64,000 bases of DNA from Lingula anatina (taxonomy: Eukaryota > Animalia > Brachiopoda). The notes under the pieces are model-generated. The model was not told the DNA's origin and searched no databases. It saw only the letters and a program-made list of their open reading frames with translations. The translations under genes were made by a program, and so were the position numbers. The DNA lies in assembly GCA_051362555.1 (NCBI GenBank), contig CM120641.1:44832401-44896400 (forward strand). Direction: 5' to 3'. Positions 1 through 62,390 of the stretch are shown one piece after another. Numbering within the stretch: the first letter of the stretch is position 1; the number at the start of each line of letters is the position of its first letter.

Positions 1-1447
1 TTACAATACTGAAATGGTTTTAGAAGAAAACAGATTAAGGAGTGGGTATTGTCTGCGGCAAGAGTTTAAAACAAAACTGATAATCCTTTTGCTACTGCGC
101 GGATTGCAAAACATTTCCAGATCGTAGTAGTACGGTATTGACCCATTAGAGCCTGCGTCATCAAAACAAACGGCAGCCATACTGGAGGGAGACCGGAATC
201 GTCTGCTGCGCATGAACAAGCCATGTCTGTAGTTCAGTTTTCGTTTTCTGTATTTATTTTCATATATAACCGAGCAAAATGATGAATTACTGCAGGGTAT
301 TTGATCGAGAGAAGGTAACTTACTTTACAAGCGTTCTCAGACTGCCTGCAGTGGTAAAAATCCATGTTGAAGGAACTAAAACCATAAACGGAGGAGAGAC
401 GGCGAGGTGGCTTTGAATCAAGACTCTTCGGAAAAGTAAAGGATAAAACTAATTTATTTTATAGCAAAGAATGAAGAGCCAACTGTGCAGATTTACCATA
501 AAAGAAAAAACAGTAGAACACCAAAGACCTAGGTGTGTACGTTTGGGGCGCACGTGTATATTTAAAGTAGTGCCCAAAAAGTGTGGATGGAGAGTGTGTT
601 AATTTGTTAAAACCTGTGGAAATACCCAGGCAGTGTTTCGACTTTTATAATGAAGACTCACCTATTGCCTTGGGTGTAATTTGTTATCAGTTACGGTGCT
701 CTCTAGATTTTATCGGCTGTCACCTACCTCTTTTATACCTGGTTAGCATTATTCCCAATTAGTGTCAAGGCTATATTTGTACTGTACACAGCTGAGCTGG
801 GCCAATTAAATCAATTACCTGTATGAAGAGTATTTGGAAGTTAGTGGCTTAATTTTCGATTTGGTGTAGTGATAAGAGTAATTTTATTTTGCAAGTAAAT
901 TCTACCTCAGGTGTAATTGACATATAACTTTAATAACCTCATGAAATAATTTTGCACTTTCTTCTCTAAAAAAGTTAAATTCTGCTCCTTTTAACTGTAA
1001 TGTTGTAAGTTATAATATGAATAAAAAACACTATTGTTATCTTTCTATTAATTTAGATTTACATGTAGGAAATTGATCAGGCATTTCCCACCAAGCCACA
1101 CTGATTGGGTGCAAGTAAATTATTAAAAAAAAAAACAAAAAAAAACGGAAGCTTTTGATGACAGGTACAAAAGGCAGCTAGATGACACACAAGGTAGAAG
1201 CAGCAAAAAATATTCCTAGATCTCTGTGACCAGCTGAGGAGACAGGATCTGAACATCAGGAGAGTGAAATCCAGTGCATGACAGGAGTTATTTAATTGAA
1301 GTGACACTCAGAACTCAGCATTTCATGTTCACTTTTATTCATACAAAATGTGCACTTTTCCTATATGTTTAAGCAAATGGTTGCAGAAATCAATTCATGA
1401 ACTGAATTATTATTTTACATTGGACATCATAAATACATGATTGTGAA

Positions 1448-2450
1448 AAATGCCTTGCTTCTGTGAATGACTGAATAATAATAAAATCCTAACAATGTTG
1501 CTTATATGAATGGTTGCATTCATGGTGAATATTAAACTCTCTCAAACAACAGTCTCGTTACATGTACATTCTAATGAACCAAAATGAAGTACAAGAATGC
1601 TGAAATAATTTAAAAAGTTGATGATGGTATAGAGCAAATGTTCTGCATACTTTACTTCTGTACTGTATAAACAATAGCATCTGAAAATCCCCAATATAGT
1701 TAGGCTTTACATTTAAAAAAAGAGAACAACAAATACCTGATATTGCAGTTTAAAAGTAAATTTAAAATACATGAATTTTGTTCACTGAATACCTAGCAAA
1801 ATATTCTCAATGCAAATGGTATATAAAATTTTATAAAATCAGTTTGATACAATACTTTTTATGACAGTAGATGTATTTTGAAAACTTATTTACAACACAA
1901 CTCACCAGCTTTATTTTGATACAAAGGACACGTCTTTTTCATCATTGACATAGTTTCTATTGCTCCATTGATATCAAGTGTATAGTCCCATGGCAAATTC
2001 CCATTCTCTAAGTCCCACTTAAACTGAGGTTTGAGGATATTTGTAGTGCCTAACAAATGCTTCTGTGAATGACTGAACTAATAATAAAATGCTAACAATG
2101 CTGCTTATATGAATGAACAACAGTCTTGTTACATGTACTTTCTAATGAACCAATATGAAGTACAAGAATGCTGAAATAATTTCTGACAGCTTCACGATGT
2201 AAAGATAAGTCATAACTAACAGCAATATTTCATGTCATAAGACAATCATACATTCTTCCTTGAATCCACAAGGGTTTATCCTAATGATCAGCTCAAATTT
2301 TTTATATCTATCCTTTAAGAAAACAGTTGCTTCTATTTATGGTTAAACTTATGATTACACATTAAACTCTCTCAAACTATAACTGTTATTACCCAATGAA
2401 CAAGAAAAATGAAGTACAAGATAACTGAACTATCTTCTGACAACACGATG
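1448..2450. repeat. Three dispersed direct copies of a 100-170 bp unit (about 1448-1611, 2055-2200, 2360-2450)
   Basis: Shared tgcttctgtgaatgactgaa, tgaagtacaaga and ttaaactctctcaaac segments. Confidence 0.8.
1906..2049 (-). other. Candidate 144-nt exon of an unidentified divergent transcript
   Basis: Acceptor tttgttag, donor gtgagt; phase 1-1 open frame TTNILKPQFKWDLENGNLPWDYTLDINGAIETMSMMKKTCPLYQNKA. No recognisable homology and no complete gene model. Confidence 0.35.
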
Positions 2451-2639
2451 TTGGGTAAGTAGCATTTAGTAGGATTTCACGTTTTTAGACTGTCTGGAGT
2501 TCATATCGGTCGATCCCGCTGATCAGCTGAAGCCTCAGCTTGTATATATCCTTTTCCCTTTGGTGTCCTTGATCGTGATATGAAGTTTACTTTATTTTAT
2601 TTGGTTTACCTATATTTACGCTACTATTCCCCGTCGTTC

Positions 2640-3312
2640 ATTCCCTCCAGCATGGCCGCGGGACTAGTGTTACGGAGCAAATATGACGTCACTGTAATCG
2701 GTTAATACTGCAATGCAGCAAGGCAGTCGTGTCAACATTCCAAGGTTCTGCACTGATTACCATTTTCAAGTTAGGCATATTTTATCCACTGAATTTGTCT
2801 TGTGCTTTATCTACCTATGAATTAAAGTTAATATATTTTCAAGTCTGTGATATCCCGTGAAATAGTGAAGTTTATACGCCTAACCATATAAGGCAAGTTC
2901 TTGCTAAGGCAGTCCGCAGTCACGTGGTAAAGAAGGCATGTCTGACGATTTACATCATGTAAGTGCGCACATAAATGTAGATCGTCTTGCCTAAATACAC
3001 AATGCAATTTGCTGTGCTTTTAAAATAAATAATGCATTGTATCTGAGTCTTCATACTGCACTTTGAACTTCTAACACCCCAGAATAATACGACTTCGACT
3101 CAAGTTATATGTAATTTTCAAAAGTGATGTAAACGTTACGCAGCAAATGTATTTTTGTCCAATCATAGCATTTTATTTGCTGTTCGAAAGTCCCAGCGGA
3201 TAAATAGCCGGTCGAAAGAAGTGCCTGCCACCCTTGTAAGCCTTCTCTCGGATAAGGAAGTTAAACTCTGATAGTCAGTCTCAAGTCGGAGGTATCACAA
3301 ATTGTCAAAATG
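2640..3312 (+). promoter_or_regulatory. CpG-enriched promoter and 5' exon of the cofilin locus, possibly bidirectional
   Basis: CRE palindrome TGACGTCA 2684-2691, E-box CACGTG 2921-2926, CCAAT 3159-3163, TATA-like GATAAATA 3199-3206, then aaaATG|gtaggt at 3310. Confidence 0.65.
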
Positions 3313-6300
3313 GTAGGTGTTTTTACTGCTTGTTTATACTTTGAAGCAATAAATTACTATGGGTTAAGGTATATATGTGTGACATTTTAAATTTGTACGT
3401 AAAATTGCCGAAATTATCGAATGAAAAAGGAAGGGGGTGTCCGCTAACGTGACGAATGCTTAATGTTAGATCTAGAAGGTCTAGAAGTTAACGGAATGAG
3501 TCACCGTCTCAATATTAAGAATTCGAAGGGTATAAGACGCGTAGTTTAATCTGATCGACACTAATGAAAATGCAACATTTCATTCATTTGAGCGGACACC
3601 GTTCTAGCTTCAGTACATGCGTGTGACCCAGTATTTTGACGGGTAACGGCCCTTATTTCTACGGGATTGACCTAATTTGGTCTTGCGCATTGGCATTGCT
3701 TAGCCAGAATGATAGGTGGTATCTCAAAGTCACCCGGAGAATTTTGTTATTTCGATATATCTTTATAGCTTGTGTTTTTATTTTGTGTGTTAGTGCAAGC
3801 GGCATGATTGTGACCCATCCCCTTAACACAACTTCTCTAATGAATTGAGGCATTGAATTTTTTTATCAGTGTGTGCCATGGATTAGTTTACATGAGTAAT
3901 ACTGACATTTACAACTATTTTAGAAAAAAAACAACAAAAACATCAACAACAATGTGGATTTTAAAGGGTGAAATACACCTATGTAATAATTGTTAGTGAT
4001 GTGTGCCCTTTCAAGAGGATTCTATTGGGCGGGGGGAGGGCAGTTCACAGGAAATAAAATCGTTAATTCACAAATCACAGTAAATAAGAAATTATTCATA
4101 TTTCATTGAAAGTATACAGGTATTACGAGTTAAAAATCACAAACCAGCGAGTTTAATAATTTTGTTTCATGTAGGATGGAAAATGATGAAGCTGCAATCA
4201 CGAGTTACAGGAATTGGGTTCTTTATGGATCATGCTAAATAATATGTGCATTTCACACTTCTTGGGGAAGAAAAAGTGGCTTTCACAGATAAGAAAATGC
4301 CCAATGGGACCCTCCTTAAATCGCTTCCCTATTTCTCATTTGAAGGATAACATGCAATGGAGGGGGTCAGAGCTTCTTTTTAAACAGTAAATAAAAATTG
4401 AAAAAGAACTACAATGAACAAGCATTGTATTATATAGTTTATTGATAATTTTGTAATATTACTCATATTTTATATATTTTACAATTTGATTATATGACAT
4501 GTCTTGGGAAGGCAATATGATGGTCCTGTTGTTGTACAGTTAGGAGTATGGGAATAATTGTCATGCCCCTCCCCTGTGAATCATTTTCATTAATATAACA
4601 TACTACTTGCAGTATGAATAACTGCAAAGGCTCTCAGAGTTATGTTTTACAGTTGTTTAAATTATTTAACATTTATTTCCTTGTGGGTTTTGTATAAAAT
4701 CTATATTTGTAACATGCAACAACATTTGTTACTGCTGACTAAATGTCATACCTATAATTAAAATTTCAGTATGTCAGATTGAATCAGACGTATTTGTGGC
4801 AAATTGAGTAATTGTGGCCCATAAGTCAGATACTCACAGGTTATGCATAGATCCTGGAATAAATAACATAACACATGGGAAGAATATACACCTGAGCTAG
4901 CTAGAAAATGTGAAAGGTTATATGGATTCCCCTGTTTGGAACTTGCAAGTGCTATTACCTGACAGTTTTTGAGTTGAATGTAGCTGTGAGGTAAATTGTC
5001 TTGATATGAAAATGTATGGACTACTTTTCTTTTTATGCTGTTTATGATTGAATGAAAAGGAATTATATTAGAAAAATTGAAAACCTGGTAAAATTGTTTC
5101 TGTTTTCATTATTAAATATGGGACACTTTTGGTATATAATTTGTATATATAGATATGTCCAATGTTAATGCGCAGGGAGAAAAAAAAATATAGAAACAAG
5201 TACAAAATAAAAATTAAATGTTAGGCAAAAGACTCTACAATATCCAGAAAAACTCAAACAAGTGTACATTGAAGGGTGTGGGTTAATAGATCCATATTTA
5301 GTCGTAAATATGTCAGACTCCACTACACGATGATATAAATACAGGCCTGTTTCTTTGGCTACCAGACTGATGCATTTCATAAATGGGTGAACTCCCTACG
5401 GATCTTTGTATTGGAGAAATTCTGTGATGAGTTTGCATGATTTGCATGTAGTTCATGTGATCTGCGTGCGTTTTTCACTGCATGTTAAGCCAGCCAGCCA
5501 GTCAGCTTGAAGGATGAGGAAGACCGAAGTGCATGTGCAGCCTGTTGGTGGGAAGATGATGCCTGTAACGAAAAGGTCAGGTTCTGAGTTTTTTGTCTTG
5601 CTTAAAACTATTATTATAGTGTTTAAGTTTGCTGATTAGTCTTTTTTTTTTTTTTTTGGGGGGGGGGGGGGGGTCAAACTGCTGATATTGGTCGTTGTTG
5701 TTATAATTACCAATTAGTGCAGTTCTTCCCCAACCCAACTCTAATTTGTCTATTTATGTCTGTTGATTAACAAAAAAAAAAATAATAATAATAAGCAGAT
5801 TTGTTGAAAAAACATAAGGCATTTTCCAGAGCAGAAATATGTCAAGATTTGCTCTTTGGCAAATGCTTTATCTGTACCTTGCATCTGCTATTTGCAAACT
5901 GTTCCACATAGTTCAGTTGTTCATAGAGAGTTGAATACTAACCAGTTTTCCCTGTACACAACTTTTGTGGTAATCACATCCCCTTTTACACCAAAGTTTT
6001 CAACATACTGACCACTGTTTGTGCACAAGCAATGTCTGCAAATATTTTTTCTGAAAAGAAAAAAAAAATAATCAGTTGTAAAATTGATGCCTTTAGAAAC
6101 AGTTGGCAGTGTTCATTGTGCAAATGCCTTTTGTTTTTCCCCATGATTGATTTAGTATTGTTATTTGTTTGGTTCCCTTTGATGGAGCAATGTAGCAATT
6201 AATCGACTTATTTTTGTGCTGACAAATAATAGGCACTGTTTGTTTGCATGCCCTTTGGACTTCTGAATTATAACTTTCTAACAGAATTTGTTCTGATTTA

Positions 6301-18800: not shown

Positions 18801-21800
18801 ATCATGCTGTGTTTGAAGTACATGTATATGCTGATAAGACATTTTTCTTGTTACTTTATACTTTTCGAACAAAAGTAAAGGGCAAATAGCTAAGTTTCAG
18901 CAAATAAAGAGTAAACAGTGGCTCTGCATTAAAATATCCTAAAAAAATATTCAAACAGCTTGCAGTCAAGGTCCCTACCTGCTTTCCATTGTGAGTTACT
19001 GACTGCAGGATGGTGCTGAGGGCCTTAATGCCAATGGCTAAATCCAACAGATGGGCGGCAAAGAAGAAATAGTTAAAATTCCCAAGGACGGAGAACAGGC
19101 AGAAACACAGCAGATATAAGAAAGACTGGAAAATAATAAAATGGCCAAATGTTAGTGGATCTCTATCAGGGAAACATTTGTCATATCAAAGTTGGAAATA
19201 AATACCATAAATATGTTTGTACTACAAAATGTTATTCTGTAAACTAAATTGTATTTTAATAAATACCATAAATATGTTTGTACTACAAAATGTTATTCTG
19301 TAAACTAAATTGTATTTTTAACTTATAACATCACAGAATTAAAGCTGCACTATGACATATCTGTTAGTGGATAAATGGGCATTCTATATGCTTATACTTT
19401 ATTACCTTATTGTATGTGGCAAACACTGTGGTTTAAACATACACATAGTATTATTTTTAAGATCATATTAGATACCAGCAGAACAAATCTTACATTGTCA
19501 GTAAAAATGACCCCCCACTTCCAAATGTGATACTGCCAGTCAACACCTTGTAGAAAATGTGGCAGGAAGCGGGACTTGGGCTGCTCCTGGTGAGCATCTT
19601 TGCCAGGAATTGTGGAGCCTTTCTCCATCCCCAGCAGGTTGCTGATCTCGTCAAAGTCAAACTGTTCACAGTACTTATTGCGGACCTATGAAACATGAAA
19701 GTTGTACAAATAAGAATATTTTTTCTCATTACTTAAGTTATCTAAAAACATTTTGCCCACATTTTTTTACAATAGACAAAATTTTATCTAACTAAACTTC
19801 TTTACCAGTACAGGTAAAAAAAATTGTGCCAGCTATTCAGTTTCTCTCTCCCAATTCATCTTACAGTCAGAAACTTACAAATTAGCATTAATAACACAAT
19901 TTTTCATTCATGCAGAAATTTTTTTGTTAATAAAAAATTCAATTAAAAGTAAAAACCAATGGAGTCTTTTTCTCAACTAAAAACGAGCAAGGTACCTTCT
20001 TCTTCACGAACTTGTCCCAGTAGCTCTCTGGAAAGGAGGCTGTGCTTAACACCAGTTTATCCCAGTGGCTCTTGATGTCATCCTCACTGGGTTGTTCTGC
20101 TATCCACATGCCTTCAAATTCCAACTTGCGAGCAATCTCTTTTTCACGTTTGAAGATAACTAGTGGTACCTGCAAAATTACATTGGTCAGTACTATGTAT
20201 ACAAAATGATATGTACTTCTGCAAATTACCTTACTTTGTTATGTTCAATTATTGGAATACAAAAACTGATTCTCTCTGTTGACCGAAGAAGCTATCACAT
20301 TAATGCAATGGTAGTATGCATACAACAAGAGAAGAAAAAAATATTTCATATGTTTTTTTTACACTAAAAGCCATCAGGTTTGATCAACAATACCCATTTC
20401 ATTATTTAAATATAACCCTGCATGAGAATTTGATGGGTAAGAAAATGACAAGGGAATCCCTGATTTACTTCTTATATGAGCCAGTACTGGACACATTTAT
20501 ATAGTACAGAGTATGTCTAATGGCAATTCAACATCTGTGCACCAAGTATTACCTTTAAGCAGTAGTATGCAATAGCATCAGATATTACAGGGTACAACTA
20601 ATGGCAATTCTGTGACCAAGTATTACCTTTAAGCAGTAGTATGCAATAGCGATGGAGAAGGACACAATGGTATGGGCCAGGGCACACAACTGGACCACAG
20701 GCAACAAATAGTACAAAGTGCTGGCCATGGTGATCCACTCCTCAAACTCCTCCTCACTGGGTTCTTCTCCTCCCTCCTCTCCCTCTGTAGCATTCACAGC
20801 TGCCTCGGCCATATCATTACCAACATCCTCACCAGCAATAGGCACCTTCACCACCTAGTAAGAAAAATAACTTTTAATTTTTATCCTTTCAAAACTTTTG
20901 GGTATCAGATTTGAGTGATAAATGTTACATCTAGTTGATGCTTTGCTTTGTATGAATAAATTCATGTATTCCGCTGAAAGGATCCCATGAAACAGTAGCT
21001 TGTAGACCCAATGAGGAAAGAAAAATATCTGTCTGTTTCTAGAGCACTAAAAGATATATCAGGTTTTAGCAACTATTTTCTTTTAAGTCAACCAGAAGTC
21101 CCTGTAAAAAAGACACCTAGTCATAACAATCATAATGACAGAGATTTTAAGTCCAAGTATGGATTTATAAAGTATGCACATTTTCTCTCAACAACTTATA
21201 CCAGTGGGAAATTAACCTCCAGAATTTGACAGTCAAGAATAATGATTTAATGACTTCTAATTCACTACTCAGATTAGAAAATTTGGACACTTTCCAACCT
21301 ATTCAAAGCTCCAACCCCTTACTTGCCCAAGAAACTCATCACATAGGATTAAGGCAGCTGAAGTGTTTCAAGAGAATAACTGGTCAATTCCAAAATATTC
21401 ACTTTGGTATTATGATGAAATTAAGAACTTAAATGAAGCCCATGAAATAATTAGATAACAAAAAATAATCACCTGATAAAACAACAGCACAAAGTTGATG
21501 ATGAAGGCCAGCACCAGGGCAGCAAACTTGAAATTGTAGAAATTTCTTGCAAACCAACCCTGAAAGAAATAATGATCAAATAGTTAAAATCATGGCAGAA
21601 TACCTACGCACACAAATAACAGTAAATCATTGTATTAATAGCAGTGGAAAAGTAGACTATCAGGCATTTGAAATGAACATATTTCTTTTTATGCATTAAG
21701 CAATATGAAGGGTGAAATCTTTATAATGTGCATCAAAACCAACTGTTCTACTTACAAGAACAAAGTTGCCATATTCTGTTCCTTTGATCTCGTATGGCAG

Positions 21801-25188: not shown

Positions 25189-28100
25189 CCCACAAATATA
25201 TATATGATTGTACTGACAAAGTCTTGCTAATGGGGCAAACATCCATTATGTCAGCCACCTTACAGTATAAAAATCTAGGAAATGGCATCAACCACAAAGT
25301 CATATAAAGTCTTAATTATGACAATTCAAGGATAAAGAACCTTTATACAAGCTGAACTGATACAGTCAAATGTATGATAAATAAGCTCACCTTGGCTCAC
25401 TTGGCATGTGCTCTGAAAGGTTGGTCAACAGGACAGCTACATTGAAGCCGATGTCTTTGGCTGGATTGTGGAAACGGTCAGTGAACTCCATGAAATCCAC
25501 TTTGCCGTCCTGATTGGTGTCCACACACATCATGATGTAGTCTATCTCCTCGCTAGAATTTGTGGGAAATAAATAAATTAGGAAAAAACTAGTAGACTGT
25601 GGAGATGCAGTGCTGACAATCAAATCAAAAATTGCATGTATTCATTCTGATTGTTATTGCATTTTAATTTAATTAATTTTTTAATTTGTGTATGAAGCTG
25701 TACCTATCTGTAATTTGTGACTGTCTAAATAAGGAAACCCACTTTAAAAACAATTTTAATTAATGTTAAAACATATAGCCATATCTGAAGAAAAAAATTA
25801 TCTATACAGGCTCCATTAGATTTTATTATGGTATAGTGCTTCAAGTAAGTTGTAAAAATGACTGTAGATCGCTTAACTGCATGTAAATAAATAAAATAAT
25901 GGGTATATAAAAAGTATGATAGATATATATATATACCACTGGCAACAGACAGAACAAAAATATCACGAAAGGTTACAACAATTTTTCTAAACAAAGAACA
26001 TGAAAGCAACTACAAGAGCATTGATTACAGACTAAGAAACTGTTTTAATTGTTATGCAAGTGTGAGAACATTGTTTAGTGGCTTTGTTGCATGTAAGAGC
26101 TTTTAGCTGCAGAATTAGGTTTATATGTTGTTGAGCAGCTGTAATATACCTTAGTGCATGTACGGTTCCCCCTTCTTATTGATTCTTACACCAAAAACTT
26201 TGTAACAGCTTTCCTCTAATTAATTTGCAATTAAAGGACACATATACCTGGCACCAAATGTATATGACGTCAGACAACATGAGGTACAGTCAACACAAAA
26301 TAAACAGCACTTTAAAAACATTACAAGTGCAGACAGATTTTAGTGCACTACCCGTACAATGAACAACATCCTGAGGACATCATCTACTGGACAAAACAAC
26401 CATAATCTGTTGACAATTAACAGAGGAGGTATTCTTTGTGAACATGTAAAAACTAAATCACACAAAATAAATCGGAGGATCAGAGATGCCATGGACACAT
26501 CTCACTTTGTATGTACTACCAGCTGGATTAGTTTTAAAGTAGGGAAAAAGACACCAGTGTCAGTCATTCAAGGTAAACCATTGTGAAATACTGTGAGACC
26601 CATTGGAAGAAGACAATGAAAATAAAAATGTAATATATTAAAGAACAAAAAAAAAAACTCTGAGAGCACGTAAATCATGTAACTGCAGAGTGCCTCCAGC
26701 TTAGCAAGCTGGTGGTACACTTCAAACAAAAATAAATAAATATATAAATAAATAAATCACCAAGCAAAAAACTGTCTTCCAAAAGAAAAAATAAGGGCAA
26801 CTTGAAAAAAATACACAATAACTTTTTGAATAATTAACACTTGCAATTTGCCTTAATCTTCATGACTAGAATTATAATCAAGATAGTGAAGAAAAATATT
26901 CCATGGAGAGAGAGGGCACTATCACAGTTAATAAAGACAGGCCACACACATCTTTACCTAGGTAATCAACATGGACATATTAACAGCATTTTTAAAGGGG
27001 GTAGAGGGGCTCTACAATTACATGATCAGGTTTGTCAATTCAATCCCCAGTGATATCAAGTCCTGAAAATTAAAAAAATCCAAAAACTGTGGGTTTTTGG
27101 ATGGGGAGGGGGGAAGTGTCAGGGCACCACATGTATCTAATAACCAACGACTAATGCAACTATGTGATCCAAGGGAACAGTGGGACTGCAAACCAACAAT
27201 ATTCAGGCTTTCAAACAACTAGTTTCCAATTGGCTACAGTAGCACTACTGAGGGAGCACAACCAATCTGATACAGGGTATGGTACACCATGCAACAGCTA
27301 GCTTACGAAGAGTAGATTTTATGTGCCTCCATTGCATGGCGAAGCTCTTTGGGTGACACAACTCCATCTTTATTTGTATCAAACTCCTGTGAAGATATGG
27401 ACGATAAGAACAGATACAGTACTTAAGGCATCAGGTAGTTATAGCTACAGGGTACTACTGTAGCAGGTCAATAGCTGTGAAAGCTAGCACATTTCAAGCC
27501 CTTTGACTATGGACACGTAAGACCCATAGAAAAGCAGCGCTGATATATACCAGTAGATGGCAGCAGTAGCATTGGATGATTTCACTCTCATGCTCCGTCT
27601 GCAGCTCTTTACTCTGTAGCAAGGATCAGTTTCAGAATAAAAACTTGAGACACAAAATTGGTCTCGACTTTAAGACCACCACTTTTACTCAATATTGATC
27701 CAAAATAAATGAGTTGTAGTGACATCCATTTAGCTTAAATATTATGCCTGATACATAAAAGGAAAGAAAAAGAATTTTTTATACCAAAGGCAACTTATTT
27801 CAGTGAACTGCTAAATCAACGTAAACAATAATTTAGAAAAAAAAAAAATTGGTCAGTGGTCTTAAAGATAAGACTAACTTTAGATGTCCAGCAGTGATTG
27901 CAGAGAAGACAGATTTATTATGAAAATCTTTCACTTCAGTCTCAGAATGGTGCAATTATTGCATGTTACAAAATCACAGCTTTTAAATAAAAAAGATTAA
28001 AAATTAAAACAAATTTTGCTAAAAAAATGTGGAGAGGAAAAAAGATAGATCTAATAGATAAACCAAACAACACCTCAAACTGCATTTCCATCTCAAACTG

Positions 28101-31100
28101 CAATGAAAGAATTTCATGGGTTGAAATTGCCCTGAACCCTACCATCAACCCGTGCCTACTGCAAGACAAACCTTTTATACATCTTTTGATCCAGCATAGC
28201 TCGACGGAATTCTTTGCAAGATATCCATCCATCTTTGTTTGTATCAAATTCCTAGTAAGATGCAAGATTATTTATTTCATGTGTGAATGTTACAAAGAAG
28301 TGATTAGATGTGCGAGGATTGCAGTTAGTAGAAGCTCGGGGAACTGTTCAAGCTAATACCAGAATTACAATTTAAGAAAATAATAATAATAAAACTATAA
28401 ATTTTGAAACATTTTCAATTTTGACTGGAAGAAACAGTCAAGATTTACCAATTAATTATATTTTGGTGTTTTCTACAATATGTAAATGGGCCTTTTTTAT
28501 TTTTGATGATGATAGTATATACATATACAGTTCCTTTCAGCTTGAACATGCCCTTACGTATCATTCACTGCCAAGATAAGGCCAAGATAATTGAAGAGCT
28601 GAAACAAAATATGCAAAGAAGACCACTTCAAAGCAGTATATACCTGAAAGCAGAGTAGATAAGATAAATATGAAATATCTCAATTTTCTCAAGTATGCAT
28701 TCATGCAATAACAGCCTGAAGAATGACCACTTCAAACATATCAGTACAGACTATGCAAAGTCAAGCAGAGCTCTCAAAACAAACTGATCAAGATACCAAA
28801 CATGCCTAAATAAGAAAGCATAAAGTATTTATAAAATAGTAACAGGAAAAATATATAATACTCTTCAAGGTACTGGTACAAGTTACACACCGTTTGTACA
28901 TTTTCTGTGACACCATATTGTCACGAAATTCTCTTGGTGACAAAACTCCATCACCATTTTTGTCTGCTGCCTGAAATATGCCAATCACAAATAACACACA
29001 GGAACAGAGTTAGTAGAAAATAGTGCTTCATCAATGAAAAAACCTTTTGTGCTCATTATAGGTTTCATACAACAGTTTCATTCAGAACCCACACGTGAAA
29101 ATCCCGAAATCCAAACAAAGAACAGGGTGTTTCTAATGTGCAACCTATATGCTTGCTCTTTAAAAACTCATAGCACAAATGCCACAAGTATTGTGAATTA
29201 CAACAAATAAATAAATAATTACAAAATTTGATTTAAAATATTTACAATGAATTGATAGAAAAATTGAAATTTGTAGTGAACATTCAAAGCTGACATCTTT
29301 CTTTTGGTATAATATATAAAAGTATTTTCTAGCACTTTAAAGACCAGTGAGTCATTAAATAATACAGATGTGTAGATCCATATATACATATAATATGTAA
29401 TGCATTTAATGAAAATATATGTCAAATTTCTTATAGCCATTCTGAAAACTGAGGAAAAATATGGGAAAGACTGGGATACATTCATAACATGGGGTATGTT
29501 GCAAGAAATTTTAAAATTTATAACTTCAATTAAAACCAATTGAAAAAATGGAATACTGAAGCTGTTAACCACAATGTAACAATGGTCACTTAAAGAAAAA
29601 TAATTTCTGAAAACAAAATGGAATAACTTTTCACATGCATCAACACTCATTTCAAAAATTAACTTTAAGTTATTATGATATTGCTGTGAAACACACTGTA
29701 AAAGTGTATTTCGTTAAAAAACCACTAAATTATATGGATATATTTTTCAAATAAATACAAACAGCTGATAAAAAATATTCCAGTTATTTACACCTTGTAC
29801 AAACATTAAAAAAATCTAGATTTCAATAAAACTTAAATAATCAAATAAAAAAGAACTGCATTTTTCTTACCAAGAAAGCCTCTGAAGTTGTCATATCCTT
29901 CATTTTTAAGAATATATCAAAAAACTTGAGGATCATCTAAAAAAAGAACATGATACAATAAGAACATGCATTTGTCTTAAATCAAAAGTATACAATAGAA
30001 AATTCCCATGGCATTTGAAAAATAAGATACTTGACACAAGTTGCTTAGACATTGTTCTTCCTATAAAATTGCTGATGTAACAATTTAGGTGGATATCTCA
30101 ATTACAGTAAGGTTACAGCCTAAGCCCGTAGCTTGATTCACTCCATCATAAAATTTCTTTTGGTCAAATTGCTTGAATGATTTGCTTTATTTAAGCCAAA
30201 TCAAAGGCAATTATTTCATCATTGATAATTTACCTTGCCTCCCCACCTCAAAAGCAAAACAAAACAAAAAAAAATTGGTGAAATATCACACAGTCTCTAG
30301 CAAAAAAAAGTACATGCACTTGGCCTAAATTTATCACCCTAAAGAAACCCCATTATAGTGTGCGTAACTGCTGAAGTTCCCATCATTCACCTCAACGTTG
30401 GCAGACGACTCCACTAAAGTGTCCACCATCTGTTTTCCAATGGGTCCATTCATGACATTCCCTGGTGAGAGAAAGTACACATTTATTTCTCCTCCATCTA
30501 TCAATTCAAATCTCCAATATATCAATGAATGACAAACAGTGTTAAAGATGATTTGCTACACTCTTTTTCTAAATAAAGTCACTTTTATTCATTAATCTAT
30601 AATGATTTTTAATTGAAATATTGCCAAGAAAAAAACAAATCATTAGACTACAGGTGAAAAAAACCATCTCATGACCTCAAATAGACAATAATTAAATAAC
30701 AATACTTGAAATTGAAAAGAATGGACCAAAGTACCTTCCAACATGGATAGCAACATAATCATCATATCTTTTTGTAGTTTCATAAATTCTCTGAGGAGTT
30801 CAAGTTGTTCTGGATCCTGAAGAAAATAAAGTGAAATTTTAGCTCTGAAAAACCATTAAAAATCAACATACCTACTCAAAACTACAATTTCCACATTTAT
30901 TCCAAATTTTGGTTTTATTTTTTACAAAGTTATTACTACTAAGTATAAAACCAAACAGGTGGGGGTTTTTTAATTACAGCCAGAAATGACTTTTAAAAAA
31001 ATTATCACCAATATTTGCTCCTTAGACTGTATAAATGTATAATTACATGTTAATTTCTTATAGAAAACCTAATGTGTCCTTTCTTCCTAATTTCCAACTG

Positions 31101-56500: not shown

Positions 56501-59500
56501 ATTGATTTTGAGTAAAATGGAAAACTGAAGAATAAGACATTCTTTATCCACCCATCTTTGGGTATTTCTGAGAGTACATCTAGGTTTAGGAAGTTTCATT
56601 TACAGCTTGAATAAGTCTACAATAATGAAGTATGGATGTAAAAAGATGTAACCTGTTCATTATAAAGATTACGTAATTCTGGGTCTTTATGAACTTCAAA
56701 TAACAAGCAAAATGTGGTTTTGAAATAGTGGTCAAAGGACAGGTTAGAGATTTGATAATTTTCTATTTTTCTTTTGGATTTTTAGGCAACAGCCAATAAG
56801 GAACTTAGATTTTTAACTACAATGGTTGGCAGACTAAAAGAGTCTTCTAACAATTTAAAAAAACATATATTCATTCAAACCTAGCAAAAAGGTTATTAGG
56901 GATAAGTAAAAAAACACCCTTAGCAGTAAAGCCACACCCACTACATAAAGTTTGAATGTGAATTAATAAAGCTGTGATTTTTTAAAACTTTTACTAAGAT
57001 AGTCTCTTGTGAAGTGTAAATGTATGTTCAGTAAACAAACCAAGACAGTTCAATCAATGTATTTAACAAAAGATTCCTGTTTTCATTAGTTAAACATTTA
57101 ATAAAAATCTAAAAAAATACATGAAGAAAATGATGAAATCATAATATATTATGAGGTTTTTTCACCATTTTCGTAGATTTAAAATAGAAACAGATGTAAG
57201 TGTGATTCCTTCCCCTGTGAGATTAAAATTACACCATTTTAAAAAACATTTTTATAAAGCAAAACTGTTATTTCACACAAACAATATGGATAAATACAGC
57301 TGATTAATAGCCCCACTCTCCATATTAGGGATACAGACTTGTATTAAAAAGAGCCAACAAATTATAAACATTAATCTTCATACCCAACACCAACAAACAT
57401 TCTATTACAGAGCACTATAGCATCAAAATGCCAACGCTACTGTTCTGGCTTCATTACACTACTTACACTCCATCATGGGTTAGAAATATATGCCTGTTTT
57501 TCTCCTCACTGCAAAGAAATATGTCATGTTTTGTTTTCAGTTACAGTGCACAACACAACATAGCCTATCATTCAACTACTGTACACAGATAATGCCACCA
57601 GTTTCAATCCAAAGTCTTACTATCACTACACTTCTTCTATAAGAAGAGTTTCTATTTAGTCCATGTGTATGTTAAAGAACTTCAATGTAAATAGCTGAAT
57701 TTGATTTTCATACTTACCTGCACGTGACAATCAGTACAATTTTAATCACATTTTGGCAACAATGAATCAAATAGGTAGAAATACCCAAAAACTTTGGAGA
57801 AACTGGTACCAATAATCTGTAGAAAACTACATCAAAACAGTGCATTTAGTTGGGAGGGAACACTGCCTATCAAGCACTACGTAATTTCTAGGAATAATTC
57901 TTGTAAATATAAATTCAATCAACATTCAGACATTAACACAACAAATCACAATTTAACAAATATGGGCTTTTAAAGATAAATACACAAAAATGTTCTATAG
58001 GCATGACTAAAACAATACAATGCATTACATTTGGGAAATTTAAACAATGAACATAACAGTGCTTTCTTGATACCAATAAATAGGTTGAAATCTCTATTAA
58101 AATTATAGTTAATGGATTTAAGAGATAAGAAATAGAAAAAAGAGTAAAAAATAGCAAATTATCACCTTCTTGTTCTTAAAATGTTCATACGTATGCTTTT
58201 GAGAGGAAAAACAGAAATGTAATTAATTTTTTTCTGTTCTTAATGATCATGGCTTACAAAGAAAGGAAATAATTTTTCTTTAACAGGGAAAAAATGGAAA
58301 CAATGTTTGAAAATATCTGAAAAAGTTATAAATCATATTTTAATTAAGTTCAGAAAGACAGGCCTGTCACTTGATTATGGCTTCACCAATTTCCACTGAC
58401 ATATTTCATCATCATACTTTGGTTTATTAAATCATATCCTTTAATGAAATGGATCATGAAAGCACTCAACAATCACAACAATTAACAATGAACTTTATGG
58501 ACCAATGTACTATTACAAAAACAGCAGACATTTTCCCAATTTTCGCACCACATAAATTAGATTAGAAGCAAACTGTTATGAGACAAAGTCCATTTCTGAT
58601 CCATCAGGCCATTCAACTACAGTACTGGGAATGGTTTCACAATGGAACTCAAGACCTGAAGTCTATCTCAACTTCAAAGCCAACAATTTCATTCTACTTC
58701 TTCAGTGCAAGATAAATTTTTAATAGTCTGCTAAAATTAGGTAAATACTGGTCTAAAAATATAAACCATTTTTTACTTGTGAATTCAAATAGACTACTAC
58801 TGATCAATTTACCCTAATAGGAGACAACTTTTATTCTTAAAGCTAAGACCAATTTTTTGTCTTTTTGAGAAACCAGTCCCTGTGCAGCACTTTATAAGCA
58901 AATCAGTCACATCTTATCACAGTCTTTTTCAAAAAAAAAAAAAAAAAAAAAATCATCCCCATACCTCTGTCTCAAGAATTCTGTGTCATTGTCATCATTA
59001 ATGGCTGCCAGAAAACCTGAAGACATGCTGTCCCTAGAGGCAGCGATCTGTTCCGACATTCTGATTCCATCTTTCATTGCCTTCAGTAGACCTCCGCCTT
59101 CACCTCTCAGTGCAGGCCCCAGGCATTCTGGACGTCTGATCAGCAGACGTACAACAAGGTTGGAATTCTCTTCCACACTTTCACCTGAAATGTAATAACA
59201 TTAATTTTTCAATATTACATATTTGATGATGTTTACTAATGTACTTATATTGAGTAAACCCCCCACACACACACACACACACACACACCTACACAAATAA
59301 ATATGTACATTATAAATCAATAATATAAAATATAGACATATACACATAAATTCAAACAATTTCCTTACCATTCACCCACACACAGAAGCGCAGGAAGTCC
59401 AGAAACCTCTCTCCTTCCACAGGGTCCCAGCCAATGTCTGGGTATCCCTTGACCAGCAGCTCTGAGTTGGACTGGACCCCGGCTCTGGACAGGTAAACGG

Positions 59501-60650: not shown

Positions 60651-62390
60651 ATGGCTGAGAGAGATGATGGTACAGTAGACCTTCACAACTGCCCAAAATG
60701 TAGACAATATATGACTGCACCAAGACTTCTGAGCTGTTGGCATCTTTTGTGTGAGAACTGTCTTGCTGATGCCATAGAGGGGAAGAAGCGTGGAGAAATC
60801 TTCCAGTGCTTTATGTGCAGTAGAAATGTCCCTGTGCCTTGGGAGTGCATGGCTGAATTTACAGTGCCTTTGTTCCTACAGTGTGAACCCATACCCTCCA
60901 CCACAGATGTCACATGTTATCACCATTATGAAGAGAAGGTGACCATGTACTGTAAGAAGTGTGACACAGCAATATGTCACTTGTGTGCCGTGACAGAGGA
61001 CTGTCACAAAGACCACCCCTGTGTCAGCCTCAGGATATCGTTTGCTGAATTGGACAGTAAAAAGAGACAACTTGGTAAACAAGTCTATAAACTGAGAGTA
61101 GAAATCAATGAGAAAAAAGATACCATTACCGAGCTTGACTGCCAGGAGAAAGAACTTACAGCAGAAGAGGAAGAGGCAGAAAGACAAATTGAGACTCGTT
61201 CCCAGCAGCTTATTGATGCTATAAACAGACAGAAAGAAGAAATGAAAAGTCAACTTTGTGCCAAAGTTAATGTTGAACAGCGCTTTCGTGCAAAGAGACG
61301 CCGTGATGTGATCAATTCAATAAATAGATTGGAAATGATAACAGAAATGGCTGTTCACTTGATGCAAAATGCAACACCCAAAGAATTGATGCTGCAGCAG
61401 AAGTCTCTCTCTTCTACTATGGCTAAACATGAAGCAGAGACAAAGAATATCATTTTCAAGAAAGATAAAGTTGTATATGTCTCTCGCAGTGATGCAAAGG
61501 CCAAGGACATTATTGGGAAAATATCTGGGGGAACAACTTTTCAAAGTGTAACTGGACTGAAACTAGTAGCAGAGTTTAGTACCAAGGATGGAGTAGATGA
61601 GTACACACCAGACGTAGAGGATCTGGCAGTTGACAATGCCATGAATATAGTTGTACCAGATAGGAGCAACAATAACTTGAAACTATTTGACAGCAGTGGT
61701 AGATTGGTGTCAATGTGGTCAGGTGCTGGTAGACATAAGTTAAGGTGTCCTACAGGTGTGTGCTGTACCAGTGGTGGAAATATAGCAATATGTAGCCCAG
61801 GCAATAAGAAAATATTGTTCTTAGATTCCCAGCAGAAGCTGAAGATAACTAGAATCATCAGAGATTTTAGCTGTGCAGGTGCTGTCTTTTCAAACGACCA
61901 TCTTGTGTGTACAGCAGGTGATGATAATTCAGCTTGTGTGGTGATATTTAATGCACGTGATGGTAGTGTAGTGAGAGAGATAAGGAAAGGCAAAGCTGGC
62001 AATGTGCTTTTTAGCTGGCCTCATGGGATAGCCTTGACCAGACAGGGTAATCTGGTTGTGACAGATATTGGAAAGCAGTGTGTCTATGTTCTGACCATAG
62101 AAGGGGAAGTATTACACAGGTATGGTAGGCAAGGGTCAGCTTCAGAGGGGGATGACTGTTTAGGTTCCCCATGGGGGGTGTGTGTTGACCAGTTTGGTCA
62201 CATACTGGTCACTGACAAGTTCAATGACCGTATCCACATGCTGTCCCCAAGGGCTGAGTTTATATGTCATGTGGTCACTAGAGGGAATGGTCTAGTAAGA
62301 CCCCTGGGTATTGTTTTAGACCAGGAGGGTCATCTTATTGTGTCTGAGGATGGGACTGGGAAAATTAAAGTTTTTGATTACCTAATTTAA
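60651..62390 (+). CDS. Intronless TRIM-NHL-type E3 ligase (RING, B-box2, coiled coil, NHL/beta-propeller), 579 aa, nested antisense in an RyR intron
   Basis: RING CPKC..CWHLLCENC..CFMC; B-box CYHH..YCKKCDTAICHLCAV..HKDH; long coiled coil; NHL-like repeats (PTGVC, WPHGIAL, SPWGVCVDQFGHILVTDKFNDRIH, RPLGIVLDQEGHLIVSE). First ATG at 60651, after an in-frame TAA at 60594. Confidence 0.93.
   Translation: MAERDDGTVDLHNCPKCRQYMTAPRLLSCWHLLCENCLADAIEGKKRGEIFQCFMCSRNVPVPWECMAEFTVPLFLQCEPIPSTTDVTCYHHYEEKVTMYCKKCDTAICHLCAVTEDCHKDHPCVSLRISFAELDSKKRQLGKQVYKLRVEINEKKDTITELDCQEKELTAEEEEAERQIETRSQQLIDAINRQKEEMKSQLCAKVNVEQRFRAKRRRDVINSINRLEMITEMAVHLMQNATPKELMLQQKSLSSTMAKHEAETKNIIFKKDKVVYVSRSDAKAKDIIGKISGGTTFQSVTGLKLVAEFSTKDGVDEYTPDVEDLAVDNAMNIVVPDRSNNNLKLFDSSGRLVSMWSGAGRHKLRCPTGVCCTSGGNIAICSPGNKKILFLDSQQKLKITRIIRDFSCAGAVFSNDHLVCTAGDDNSACVVIFNARDGSVVREIRKGKAGNVLFSWPHGIALTRQGNLVVTDIGKQCVYVLTIEGEVLHRYGRQGSASEGDDCLGSPWGVCVDQFGHILVTDKFNDRIHMLSPRAEFICHVVTRGNGLVRPLGIVLDQEGHLIVSEDGTGKIKVFDYLI

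What the first reader, a model, noticed from the sequence alone, without database searches (positions are those of the whole stretch)
27307..28970. Three tandem, mutually exclusive exons swap the first EF-hand of the ryanodine receptor
Seen: between constitutive exons 29871-29936 (..MTTSEAFL, phase 0) and 25391-25552 (EF-hand 2, phase 2) lie three paralogous exons of exactly 80 nt: 28891-28970, 28172-28251 and 27307-27386. Each has intact splice sites and an open frame. Since 80 mod 3 = 2, including 0, 2 or 3 of them frameshifts the channel before the pore, so exactly one must be used. All three keep a canonical 12-residue loop ([36 protein letters not shown]) but differ in the exit helix, and b carries a Cys in the loop. 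Established: the RyR EF-hand pair packs against the S2-S3 loop of the neighbouring subunit and is implicated in Ca2+-dependent regulation; invertebrates usually have one RyR gene where vertebrates have three. Inference: one gene builds three Ca2+-tuned channel types by exon shuffling, a splicing analogue of RyR1/2/3 specialisation. I do not know of a described EF-hand MXE triplet in RyR.
Basis: partly seen in the sequence, partly recalled or inferred. Interest (0 to 1): 0.9.

Follow-up and report, generated by a model that had tools for sequence, protein, structure and literature searches.

The report
Three swappable ryanodine-receptor calcium-sensor exons
The ryanodine-receptor calcium-channel gene of the lamp shell Lingula carries three copies of the exon for its first EF-hand (a predicted calcium-binding motif); RNA reads show them spliced in one at a time in proportions that differ between samples, gene models of molluscs and a ribbon worm swap the same segment, and the swap likely tunes how calcium or magnesium shuts the channel off.

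Summary
Confirmed and expressed. The window holds a ryanodine receptor (RyR) gene matching Lingula anatina XP_013392084.1 near 100%; that model uses only exon b. Three 80-nt paralogous exons lie where stated, and only single inclusion keeps frame. In 8 of 9 listed RNA runs, upstream junction reads were a 17, b 242, c 42 (downstream 16/280/39). No double-inclusion or skipping joint was listed, and ratios differ between runs (permutation p=5e-5). All 3 SNPs seen in a and c are synonymous. The same 26-residue segment is swapped between isoform models in 13 of 19 mollusc, nemertean, annelid and brachiopod species with two or more sequences; Ruditapes has three forms. Arthropods swap the adjacent exon instead. 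The exon equals rabbit RyR1 4079-4105 (EF1 loop, exit helix, K4101), and EF1 is reported to set RyR1/RyR2 differences in Ca2+ inactivation. The side-chain ligand positions are identical in a, b and c, so tuning likely acts through packing and coupling, not a binding on/off switch; function is untested. Six literature searches found no description. The scan found a two-copy version earlier in an octopus-like genome. Verdict: new variant of a known kind.

The parts
29871..29936 (-). Upstream flanking RyR exon (66 nt), helix entering EF1; holds the E4075-equivalent Glu
   Evidence: joined to a, b or c in reads
28891..28970 (-). Alternative exon a (80 nt): EF1 loop + exit helix; most divergent copy; gives Arg at the junction codon; absent from the RefSeq model
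   Evidence: 17 upstream and 16 downstream junction reads in 5 of 8 runs; 2 SNPs, both synonymous
28172..28251 (-). Alternative exon b (80 nt): the dominant form, used by RefSeq model XP_013392084.1; Cys at loop position 10
   Evidence: 242 upstream and 280 downstream junction reads in 8 of 8 runs; identical to P0125
27307..27386 (-). Alternative exon c (80 nt): least basic exit helix; absent from the RefSeq model
   Evidence: 42 upstream reads (5 of 8 runs) and 39 downstream reads (4 of 8 runs); 1 SNP, synonymous; passes the Pfam PF00036 cut-off alone
25391..25552 (-). Downstream flanking exon (162 nt): EF2 and following conserved segment; its first base completes the junction codon (RyR1 4105)
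29009..29015 (-). TACTAAC branch-point-like motif about 44 nt upstream of exon a (role inferred)
28324..28330 (-). TACTAAC branch-point-like motif about 78 nt upstream of exon b (role inferred)
19490..19685 (-). Exon (approximate ends) for the S2-S3 loop surface that faces the EF-hand of the neighbouring subunit in RyR1; D4730 is Glu, G4733 is Asp, R4736 is Glu here
   Evidence: contact residues from PMC10832476
15886..59663 (-). RyR coding exons in the window (about residues 680-3518 of P0125, from before the RyR repeats to the C-terminus; approximate ends)
   Evidence: tblastn

Best explanation
A Lingula RyR gene splices in exactly one of three tandem-duplicated exons that encode the loop and exit helix of EF-hand 1, in proportions that differ between RNA samples, and the swap likely sets how strongly high Ca2+ or Mg2+ (and possibly calmodulin) shuts the channel. 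Shown: three intact paralogous exons, single inclusion in reads, sample-dependent ratios, only synonymous SNPs seen in the minor exons, and the same swap in mollusc and nemertean gene models. Inferred: (1) exclusivity comes from splice-site competition, with nonsense-mediated decay removing any 0-, 2- or 3-exon product. (2) Since the ligand residues are the same, the forms would differ mainly in EF1/EF2 packing (Ala-Ala vs Glu-Phe before the loop) and in the charge next to the K4101-equivalent Lys (a K-M-Y-K-R, b K-M-Y-K-S, c K-I-Y-S-S; net charge of the segment +2, +1, -1). That surface would face an acidic S2-S3 loop, changing how metal binding is coupled to closure. (3) Co-expression would give mixed tetramers.
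For: Frame logic. Junction reads a/b/c 17/242/42 upstream and 16/280/39 downstream, no a-b, b-c, a-c or skip joint listed in 8 runs. Ratios per run: X1-X3 b only (52 of 52 reads), X4 3/96/25, X6 5/4/3; permutation p=5e-5. SNPs: 3 of 3 in a and c synonymous, where 0.32 of transitions would be; 22 of 23 in flanking exons. Swap with identical flanks in 13 of 19 species with two or more covering sequences. It is the only same-length substitution among the compared isoforms of Lineus, Mercenaria and Octopus, and one of two in Pomacea. Ungapped mapping to rabbit RyR1 4079-4105. K4101 mutants weaken Ca2+/Mg2+ inhibition of RyR1 (PMC10832476, abstract and passages). EF1 controls isoform-specific inactivation more than EF2, and the EF-hands shape isoform-specific calmodulin regulation (PMC5715910, passages). 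Modelling places the RyR1/RyR2 difference in coupling rather than affinity (PMC12119028, passages). Arthropods swap the adjacent exon in 3 of 5 groups checked.
Against: No functional or binding data. K4101 itself is the same in a, b and c, and its partner position is a constitutive Glu. The R4736 partner of E4075/Q4078/D4079 is not Arg in any of the invertebrate sequences printed, so the RyR1 interface transfers only in part. EF-hand deletion in RyR2 affected luminal, not cytosolic, Ca2+ regulation, and motif mutagenesis had little effect in myotubes (both seen only as cited in PMC5715910). No metal is resolved in the EF-hands of RyR1 maps (bioRxiv 2024.02.16.580716, passages). Exon a is 5.6% and c 14% of upstream reads. 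The runs are coded, so tissue, stage and population cannot be told apart; reads include overlapping mates, so p-values are optimistic. Joints under 3 reads are not listed, and decay could hide double inclusion. Three SNPs are few (about p=0.03).
Confidence: 0.55

Rival explanations
1. Direct affinity tuning: the invertebrate EF pair is a true Ca2+ sensor and the three loops differ in Ca2+ or Mg2+ affinity.
For: All three EF1 loops and EF2 follow the canonical D-x-N-x-D-G-x-[ILV]-S-x-x-E or similar pattern, unlike the degenerate RyR1 and RyR2 loops quoted in PMC12119028. The variants differ at loop positions 2, 4, 7, 8, 10 and 11 and at the residue before the loop, which can shift affinity (general EF-hand knowledge, recalled). 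Lobster and mammalian EF pairs bind two Ca2+ at millimolar affinity (as cited in PMC5715910).
Against: Side-chain ligand positions are identical in a, b and c. For mammalian isoforms, modelling found that affinity does not explain the isoform difference.
Confidence: 0.2
2. The swap tunes a different input: calmodulin, luminal Ca2+ sensing, redox (Cys in b) or a protein partner, leaving cytosolic Ca2+/Mg2+ inhibition unchanged.
For: EF-hands are tied to isoform-specific calmodulin regulation and to luminal Ca2+ regulation (as cited in PMC5715910). The EF-like 37a/37b switch of CaV2 acts as a transduction element rather than a binding site (PMC7235277, passages). The Cys of b recurs in a chiton model, and venerid clams have a loop Cys in their minor forms.
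Against: No direct evidence here. Most mollusc variants lack any Cys, so redox cannot be the general reason.
Confidence: 0.17
3. Redundant duplicates: a and c are functionally equal to b and kept only because any included copy must stay in frame.
For: b dominates (242 of 301 upstream reads) and 3 of 8 runs show only b. Exon a has a long branch in the trees. Littorina shows one form in 11 models.
Against: Synonymous sites are saturated between a-b and b-c (pS 0.78), so the copies are old yet intact. Use shifts between samples. An Arg-ending variant class is kept in bivalves, gastropods and cephalopods, and the data lean against a gastropod-only duplication (p-AU 0.047).
Confidence: 0.08

Closest known systems
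CaV2.1/2.2/2.3 mutually exclusive exons 37a/37b (EFa/EFb) (PMC7235277, passages)
   Same: Tandem-duplicated exons, length not a multiple of 3, replacing the loop and F helix of an EF-hand motif in a Ca2+ channel; regulated use.
   Different: Voltage-gated plasma-membrane channel with a non-binding EF-like motif and two exons; here an ER release channel, canonical loops and three exons.
Alpha-actinin ACTN1 exons 19a/19b (PMC4435478, passages)
   Same: Alternative exons in the first EF-hand.
   Different: One actinin form loses Ca2+ binding and a brain form includes both exons; here all three keep the ligand residues and double inclusion breaks the frame.
Insect RyR exons a/b in SPRY2 (PMC3989282, PMC8301844, passages)
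   Same: Mutually exclusive exons diversify a single invertebrate RyR gene.
   Different: N-terminal SPRY2 domain near residues 1135-1165, about 3000 residues from the EF-hands.
Vertebrate RYR3 tandem-duplicated exon event (PMC8373072 supplement rows; PMC9741552 passages and supplement row)
   Same: Homologous exon substitution in an RyR gene.
   Different: Lies about 430 residues upstream of EF1 in bird RyR3 isoforms; EF1 did not vary within species in 30 vertebrate RyR3 sequences.
C. elegans unc-68 tissue-specific isoforms (PMC7644089, passages)
   Same: One invertebrate RyR gene makes tissue-specific forms, proposed as an analogue of RyR1/2/3.
   Different: Uses alternative promoters and cassette exons in the unstructured DR2 region, not duplicated exons in a folded regulatory domain.

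Membership tests
Tandem-duplicated mutually exclusive exons | Adjacent homologous exons of equal length and phase with canonical splice sites | tested here: met
   80 nt each, AG/GT, 46-50 of 80 nt and 12-16 of 26 aa identical
Tandem-duplicated mutually exclusive exons | Each exon joined to both flanking exons in transcripts | tested here: met
Tandem-duplicated mutually exclusive exons | No joint inclusion and no skipping | tested here: met
   None listed beside 301 upstream and 335 downstream junction reads in 8 runs; listing needs 3 reads, and decay may hide such products
Tandem-duplicated mutually exclusive exons | Tissue- or stage-specific regulation | tested here: inconclusive
   Ratios differ between runs, but the samples are coded
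Ryanodine receptor | Collinear match to RyR, with EF-hand pair, S2-S3 loop, pore and C-terminus | tested here: met
   PDB matches to RyR1/2/3; near-identity to Lingula XP_013392084.1 over most exons
Canonical Ca2+-binding EF-hand | Oxygen ligands at loop positions 1, 3, 5, 9, 12 and Gly at 6 | tested here: met
   D, N, D, G, S, E in a, b and c; Pfam EF-hand matches for all three, only c above the curated cut-off as a bare exon that lacks the entering helix
Canonical Ca2+-binding EF-hand | Measured metal binding | not testable with these tools
   needs calorimetry or NMR
Actinin-type on/off EF-hand switch | One variant loses the Ca2+ ligands | tested here: not met
   ligand positions identical in all three
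RyR1-type EF-hand/S2-S3 inhibition interface | K4101-D4730 pair | tested here: met
   Lys in all three exons, Glu at 4730
RyR1-type EF-hand/S2-S3 inhibition interface | E4075/Q4078/D4079-R4736 pair | tested here: not met
   4736 is Glu in Lingula and not Arg in the other invertebrates printed
RyR1-type EF-hand/S2-S3 inhibition interface | Inhibition by high Ca2+/Mg2+ that depends on EF1 | not testable with these tools
   needs ryanodine binding or single-channel recording

The most novel reading that the evidence does not exclude
One duplication of the RyR EF1 exon, older than the split of brachiopods and molluscs, gave these animals a splice-encoded dial on the channel's low-affinity Ca2+/Mg2+ shut-off. 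It would do by splicing what RyR1 and RyR2 do by gene duplication, with an Arg-ending first exon as a conserved class, third copies added in Lingula and venerid clams, and arthropods converging on the same site through the adjacent exon.
Probability: 0.3. Interest if true: 0.8.

Novelty: new variant of a known kind. Interest (0 to 1): 0.62.

Why it matters
What the RyR EF-hands do is still argued: an inhibitory Ca2+/Mg2+ site, a coupling element to the S2-S3 loop, or a calmodulin or luminal-Ca2+ relay. Here evolution supplies natural minimal pairs: about 5,200-residue channels that differ only in the 27 residues of EF1, with canonical loops, kept across bivalves, snails, cephalopods, a nemertean and a brachiopod. 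They make that question directly testable. They also offer a way for animals that typically have one RyR gene to fit Ca2+ release to different muscles or neurons. Exons a and c are missing from the Lingula reference model found here.

Tried and rejected
No whole genome is held, so RyR gene number in Lingula and genomic exon order in relatives were not tested, apart from the Plakobranchus model that fuses two copies with the Arg-ending one first. The run search listed no indexed RNA holder; raw-read runs were laid instead, 8 of 9, reading 6-26% of each. Cross-phylum orthology is unresolved. 27-column trees have little power and exon a has a long branch. Neither 'a + mollusc Arg-type' (p-AU 0.42) nor 'a+b+c together' (p-AU 0.27) is rejected (24 of the 55 segments). 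Exon a scores higher against the Arg-type in 8 of 10 species pairs without the junction residue, but the pairs are not independent. A recalled human RYR1 disease variant at the junction position found 0 papers and was dropped. Exclusivity by steric clash is unlikely: the introns are 639 and 785 nt and the branch-like motifs are over 550 nt from the upstream donor. All introns are GT-AG, so spliceosome incompatibility is out. TGCATG, ACTAAY and YGCY motifs are not enriched over the other introns (p 0.28-0.54); TACTAAC 2 vs 1 gives p=0.04 among seven motifs tried. No convincing docker/selector pairing stood out among AT-rich inverted repeats (25 of 60 shown, no shuffle control). Pairwise dN/dS is uninformative because dS is saturated for two of three pairs. 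Four primary papers (Gomez and Yamaguchi 2014, Gomez 2016, Xu 2017, Guo 2016) are not held and were seen only as cited in other papers. No structure or complex was predicted: the fold is known and would not separate the rivals.
Full report
Observation. The three exons are at the stated places on the minus strand, each 80 nt with AG/GT ends and an open frame. Of the eight combinations of zero to three exons, only the three single inclusions read through the downstream exon. Among 85 open 80-nt splice-bounded candidates on that strand, they score 93, 88 and 60 against a profile of EF1 segments from other species; the other 82 reach at most -2.1. No fourth copy exists in the cluster. They share 46-50 of 80 bases and 12-16 of 26 residues, with synonymous sites saturated in two of three pairs, so the duplications are old.

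Gene and organism. The downstream exon matches RyR1/2/3 structures. The b-form is identical to Lingula anatina XP_013392084.1 (P0125), whose residues from about 680 to 3518 map exon by exon onto the window at close to 100%. Both Lingula sequences in that cluster use only b. No genome is held, so RyR gene number was not tested.

Expression. Nine raw-read RNA runs with the same species label were listed and eight were laid, reading 6-26% of each. Upstream joints a/b/c were X1 0/17/0, X2 0/16/0, X3 0/19/0, X4 3/96/25, X5 4/64/8, X6 5/4/3, X7 1/14/2, X8 4/12/4, in total 17/242/42. Downstream joints totalled 16/280/39. No a-b, b-c, a-c or skipping joint was listed; joints under three reads are not listed, and nonsense-mediated decay could hide such products. 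Ratios differ between runs (permutation p=5e-5, the floor of 20,000 shuffles; overlapping mates make this optimistic). The samples are coded, so tissue, stage or population may each explain the difference. The three SNPs seen in a and c are all synonymous, as are 22 of 23 in the flanking exons; b showed none.

Relatives. Up to 15 members were listed for each of 30 protein clusters. The same 26-residue segment is replaced, with identical flanks, in 13 of 19 mollusc, nemertean, annelid and brachiopod species with two or more covering sequences: Lineus, Mercenaria, Ruditapes (three forms), Mytilus galloprovincialis, Ostrea, Magallana gigas, Biomphalaria glabrata, Pomacea, Bradybaena, two Haliotis, Gigantopelta and Octopus bimaculoides, plus one unnamed cephalopod-like cluster. 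One form only was seen in Lingula itself, Magallana angulata, Littorina, Mya, Capitella and Elysia crispata; Lingula shows that annotation can miss real copies. These are automatic gene models, not reads that I examined. In Lineus, Mercenaria and Octopus it is the only same-length substitution among the compared isoforms, and in Pomacea one of two. No within-species EF1 swap appeared in flatworms, rotifers, Trichinella, echinoderms, a hemichordate, five arthropod groups or 30 vertebrate RyR3 sequences; three of the five arthropod groups swap the adjacent upstream segment. Each of the 12 mollusc species with a swap has exactly one variant ending in Arg at the junction codon, as Lingula a does; Lineus has none listed. 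Of 182 distinct segments, 14 end in Arg, 13 of them from molluscs or the cephalopod-like cluster. Trees on 27 columns do not settle whether a is orthologous to that class (p-AU 0.42) or Lingula duplicated on its own (p-AU 0.27); a gastropod-only origin is weakly rejected (p-AU 0.047).

What the exon encodes. The region aligns without net gaps to rabbit RyR1, placing the exon at 4079-4104 and the junction codon at 4105: the EF1 loop (4081-4092), the exit helix and K4101. In RyR1, K4101 pairs with D4730 and E4075/Q4078/D4079 with R4736 of the neighbouring S2-S3 loop, and K4101 mutants weaken Ca2+/Mg2+ inhibition (PMC10832476, abstract and passages). High Mg2+ or Ca2+ swings the EF-hand towards that loop, though no metal is resolved (bioRxiv 2024.02.16.580716, passages). 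A review reports that EF1 controls isoform-specific Ca2+ inactivation more than EF2, that the EF-hands shape calmodulin regulation, and also that the RyR2 EF-hand domain is not needed for cytosolic activation and that motif mutagenesis changed little in myotubes (PMC5715910, passages; the primary papers were not available). Modelling puts the RyR1/RyR2 difference in coupling, not affinity (PMC12119028, passages). Here loop positions 1, 3, 5, 9 and 12 are the same in a, b and c and K4101 is kept in all three. They differ before the loop, at non-ligand positions and in charge (+2, +1, -1). The facing S2-S3 segment keeps an acidic 4730 but has Asp at 4733 and Glu at 4736, so the second RyR1 bridge cannot form.

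Mechanism. Shown: mutually exclusive use of three old exons with sample-dependent ratios (confidence about 0.95 that the cluster is real and used). Inferred: competition between splice sites backed by decay of frameshifted products; steric clash and spliceosome incompatibility do not fit, and no motif enrichment or RNA pairing was convincing. Inferred, 0.55: the variants change how metal binding at EF1 is coupled to channel closure. Rivals are direct affinity tuning (0.2), tuning of calmodulin, luminal or redox input (0.17) and redundancy (0.08).

Known relatives and novelty. The kind is known: CaV2 exons 37a/37b and actinin 19a/19b swap EF-hand parts, and tandem exon substitutions recur in ion channels, RyR included (PMC9741552, passages and one supplement row). 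The reported RyR cases lie elsewhere: SPRY2 in insects, DR2 in unc-68, and an RYR3 exon about 430 residues upstream of EF1. Six searches aimed at an EF1 swap in RyR (listings seen, passages read for the papers named) found none, and a 2026 scallop RyR paper does not mention exons (PMC13362341, passages). Subscription journals, splicing databases and most supplements were not searched. Mollusc isoforms already sit in RefSeq as unlabelled models. This scan noted a two-copy version in an octopus-like genome and the arthropod neighbour exon before; I checked both patterns in protein clusters only. New here are the triplet in a brachiopod, direct junction reads for all three exons with shifting ratios, and a second triplet in Ruditapes. 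Verdict: real, new variant of a known kind, interest 0.62.

Noticed in passing
window 60657-62387 (+): Single open frame of 577 aa with RING, B-box and NHL matches (TRIM-NHL-like; only NHL above its Pfam cut-off). It lies antisense, probably inside an RyR intron, since residues 1-658 of P0125 have no match in the window.
   Followed up: partly
P0305/P0584, P0286/P0601, P0148/P0637 (arthropod RyR isoforms): Macrobrachium, Folsomia and Tachypleus swap the segment just before EF1, the equivalent of window exon 29871-29936, while EF1 itself stays fixed. This looks like convergence on the same site.
   Followed up: partly
P0348, P0349, P0351 (Ruditapes philippinarum): Three EF1 variants, one a residue longer; two carry Cys at loop position 7.
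   Followed up: partly
P0029 (Plakobranchus ocellatus model): The gene model fuses two EF1 exons in tandem, probably an annotation artefact that shows their order, Arg-ending copy first.
   Followed up: partly
window about 19650-19670 (-): The S2-S3 surface is strongly acidic; the G4733 position is Asp here and Asp or Glu in most invertebrates printed, whereas G4733E in RyR1 impairs inhibition.
   Followed up: partly
window 25901 and 29835: Reads in X1, X2 and X3 link these AT-rich intron spots with 34 foreign letters and run on unlike the window on both sides; most likely another transcript matching by chance.
   Followed up: no
window 25822-26691: Low sense-strand intron coverage in X4 (depth up to 3.5) with no joint; probably unspliced RNA.
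   Followed up: no
window 27288-27293 (-): TGCATG, a recalled RBFOX-type motif, 14 nt downstream of the exon c donor; the motif is not enriched overall.
   Followed up: partly
window 25391-25552, 29871-29936: Dense, almost wholly synonymous differences between reads and window, most in X7 and X8, suggesting diverged populations under one species label.
   Followed up: no
window 57466-57510 (-): A 15-residue piece of the RefSeq model matches here in a long intron; whether it is a real small exon was not checked.
   Followed up: no
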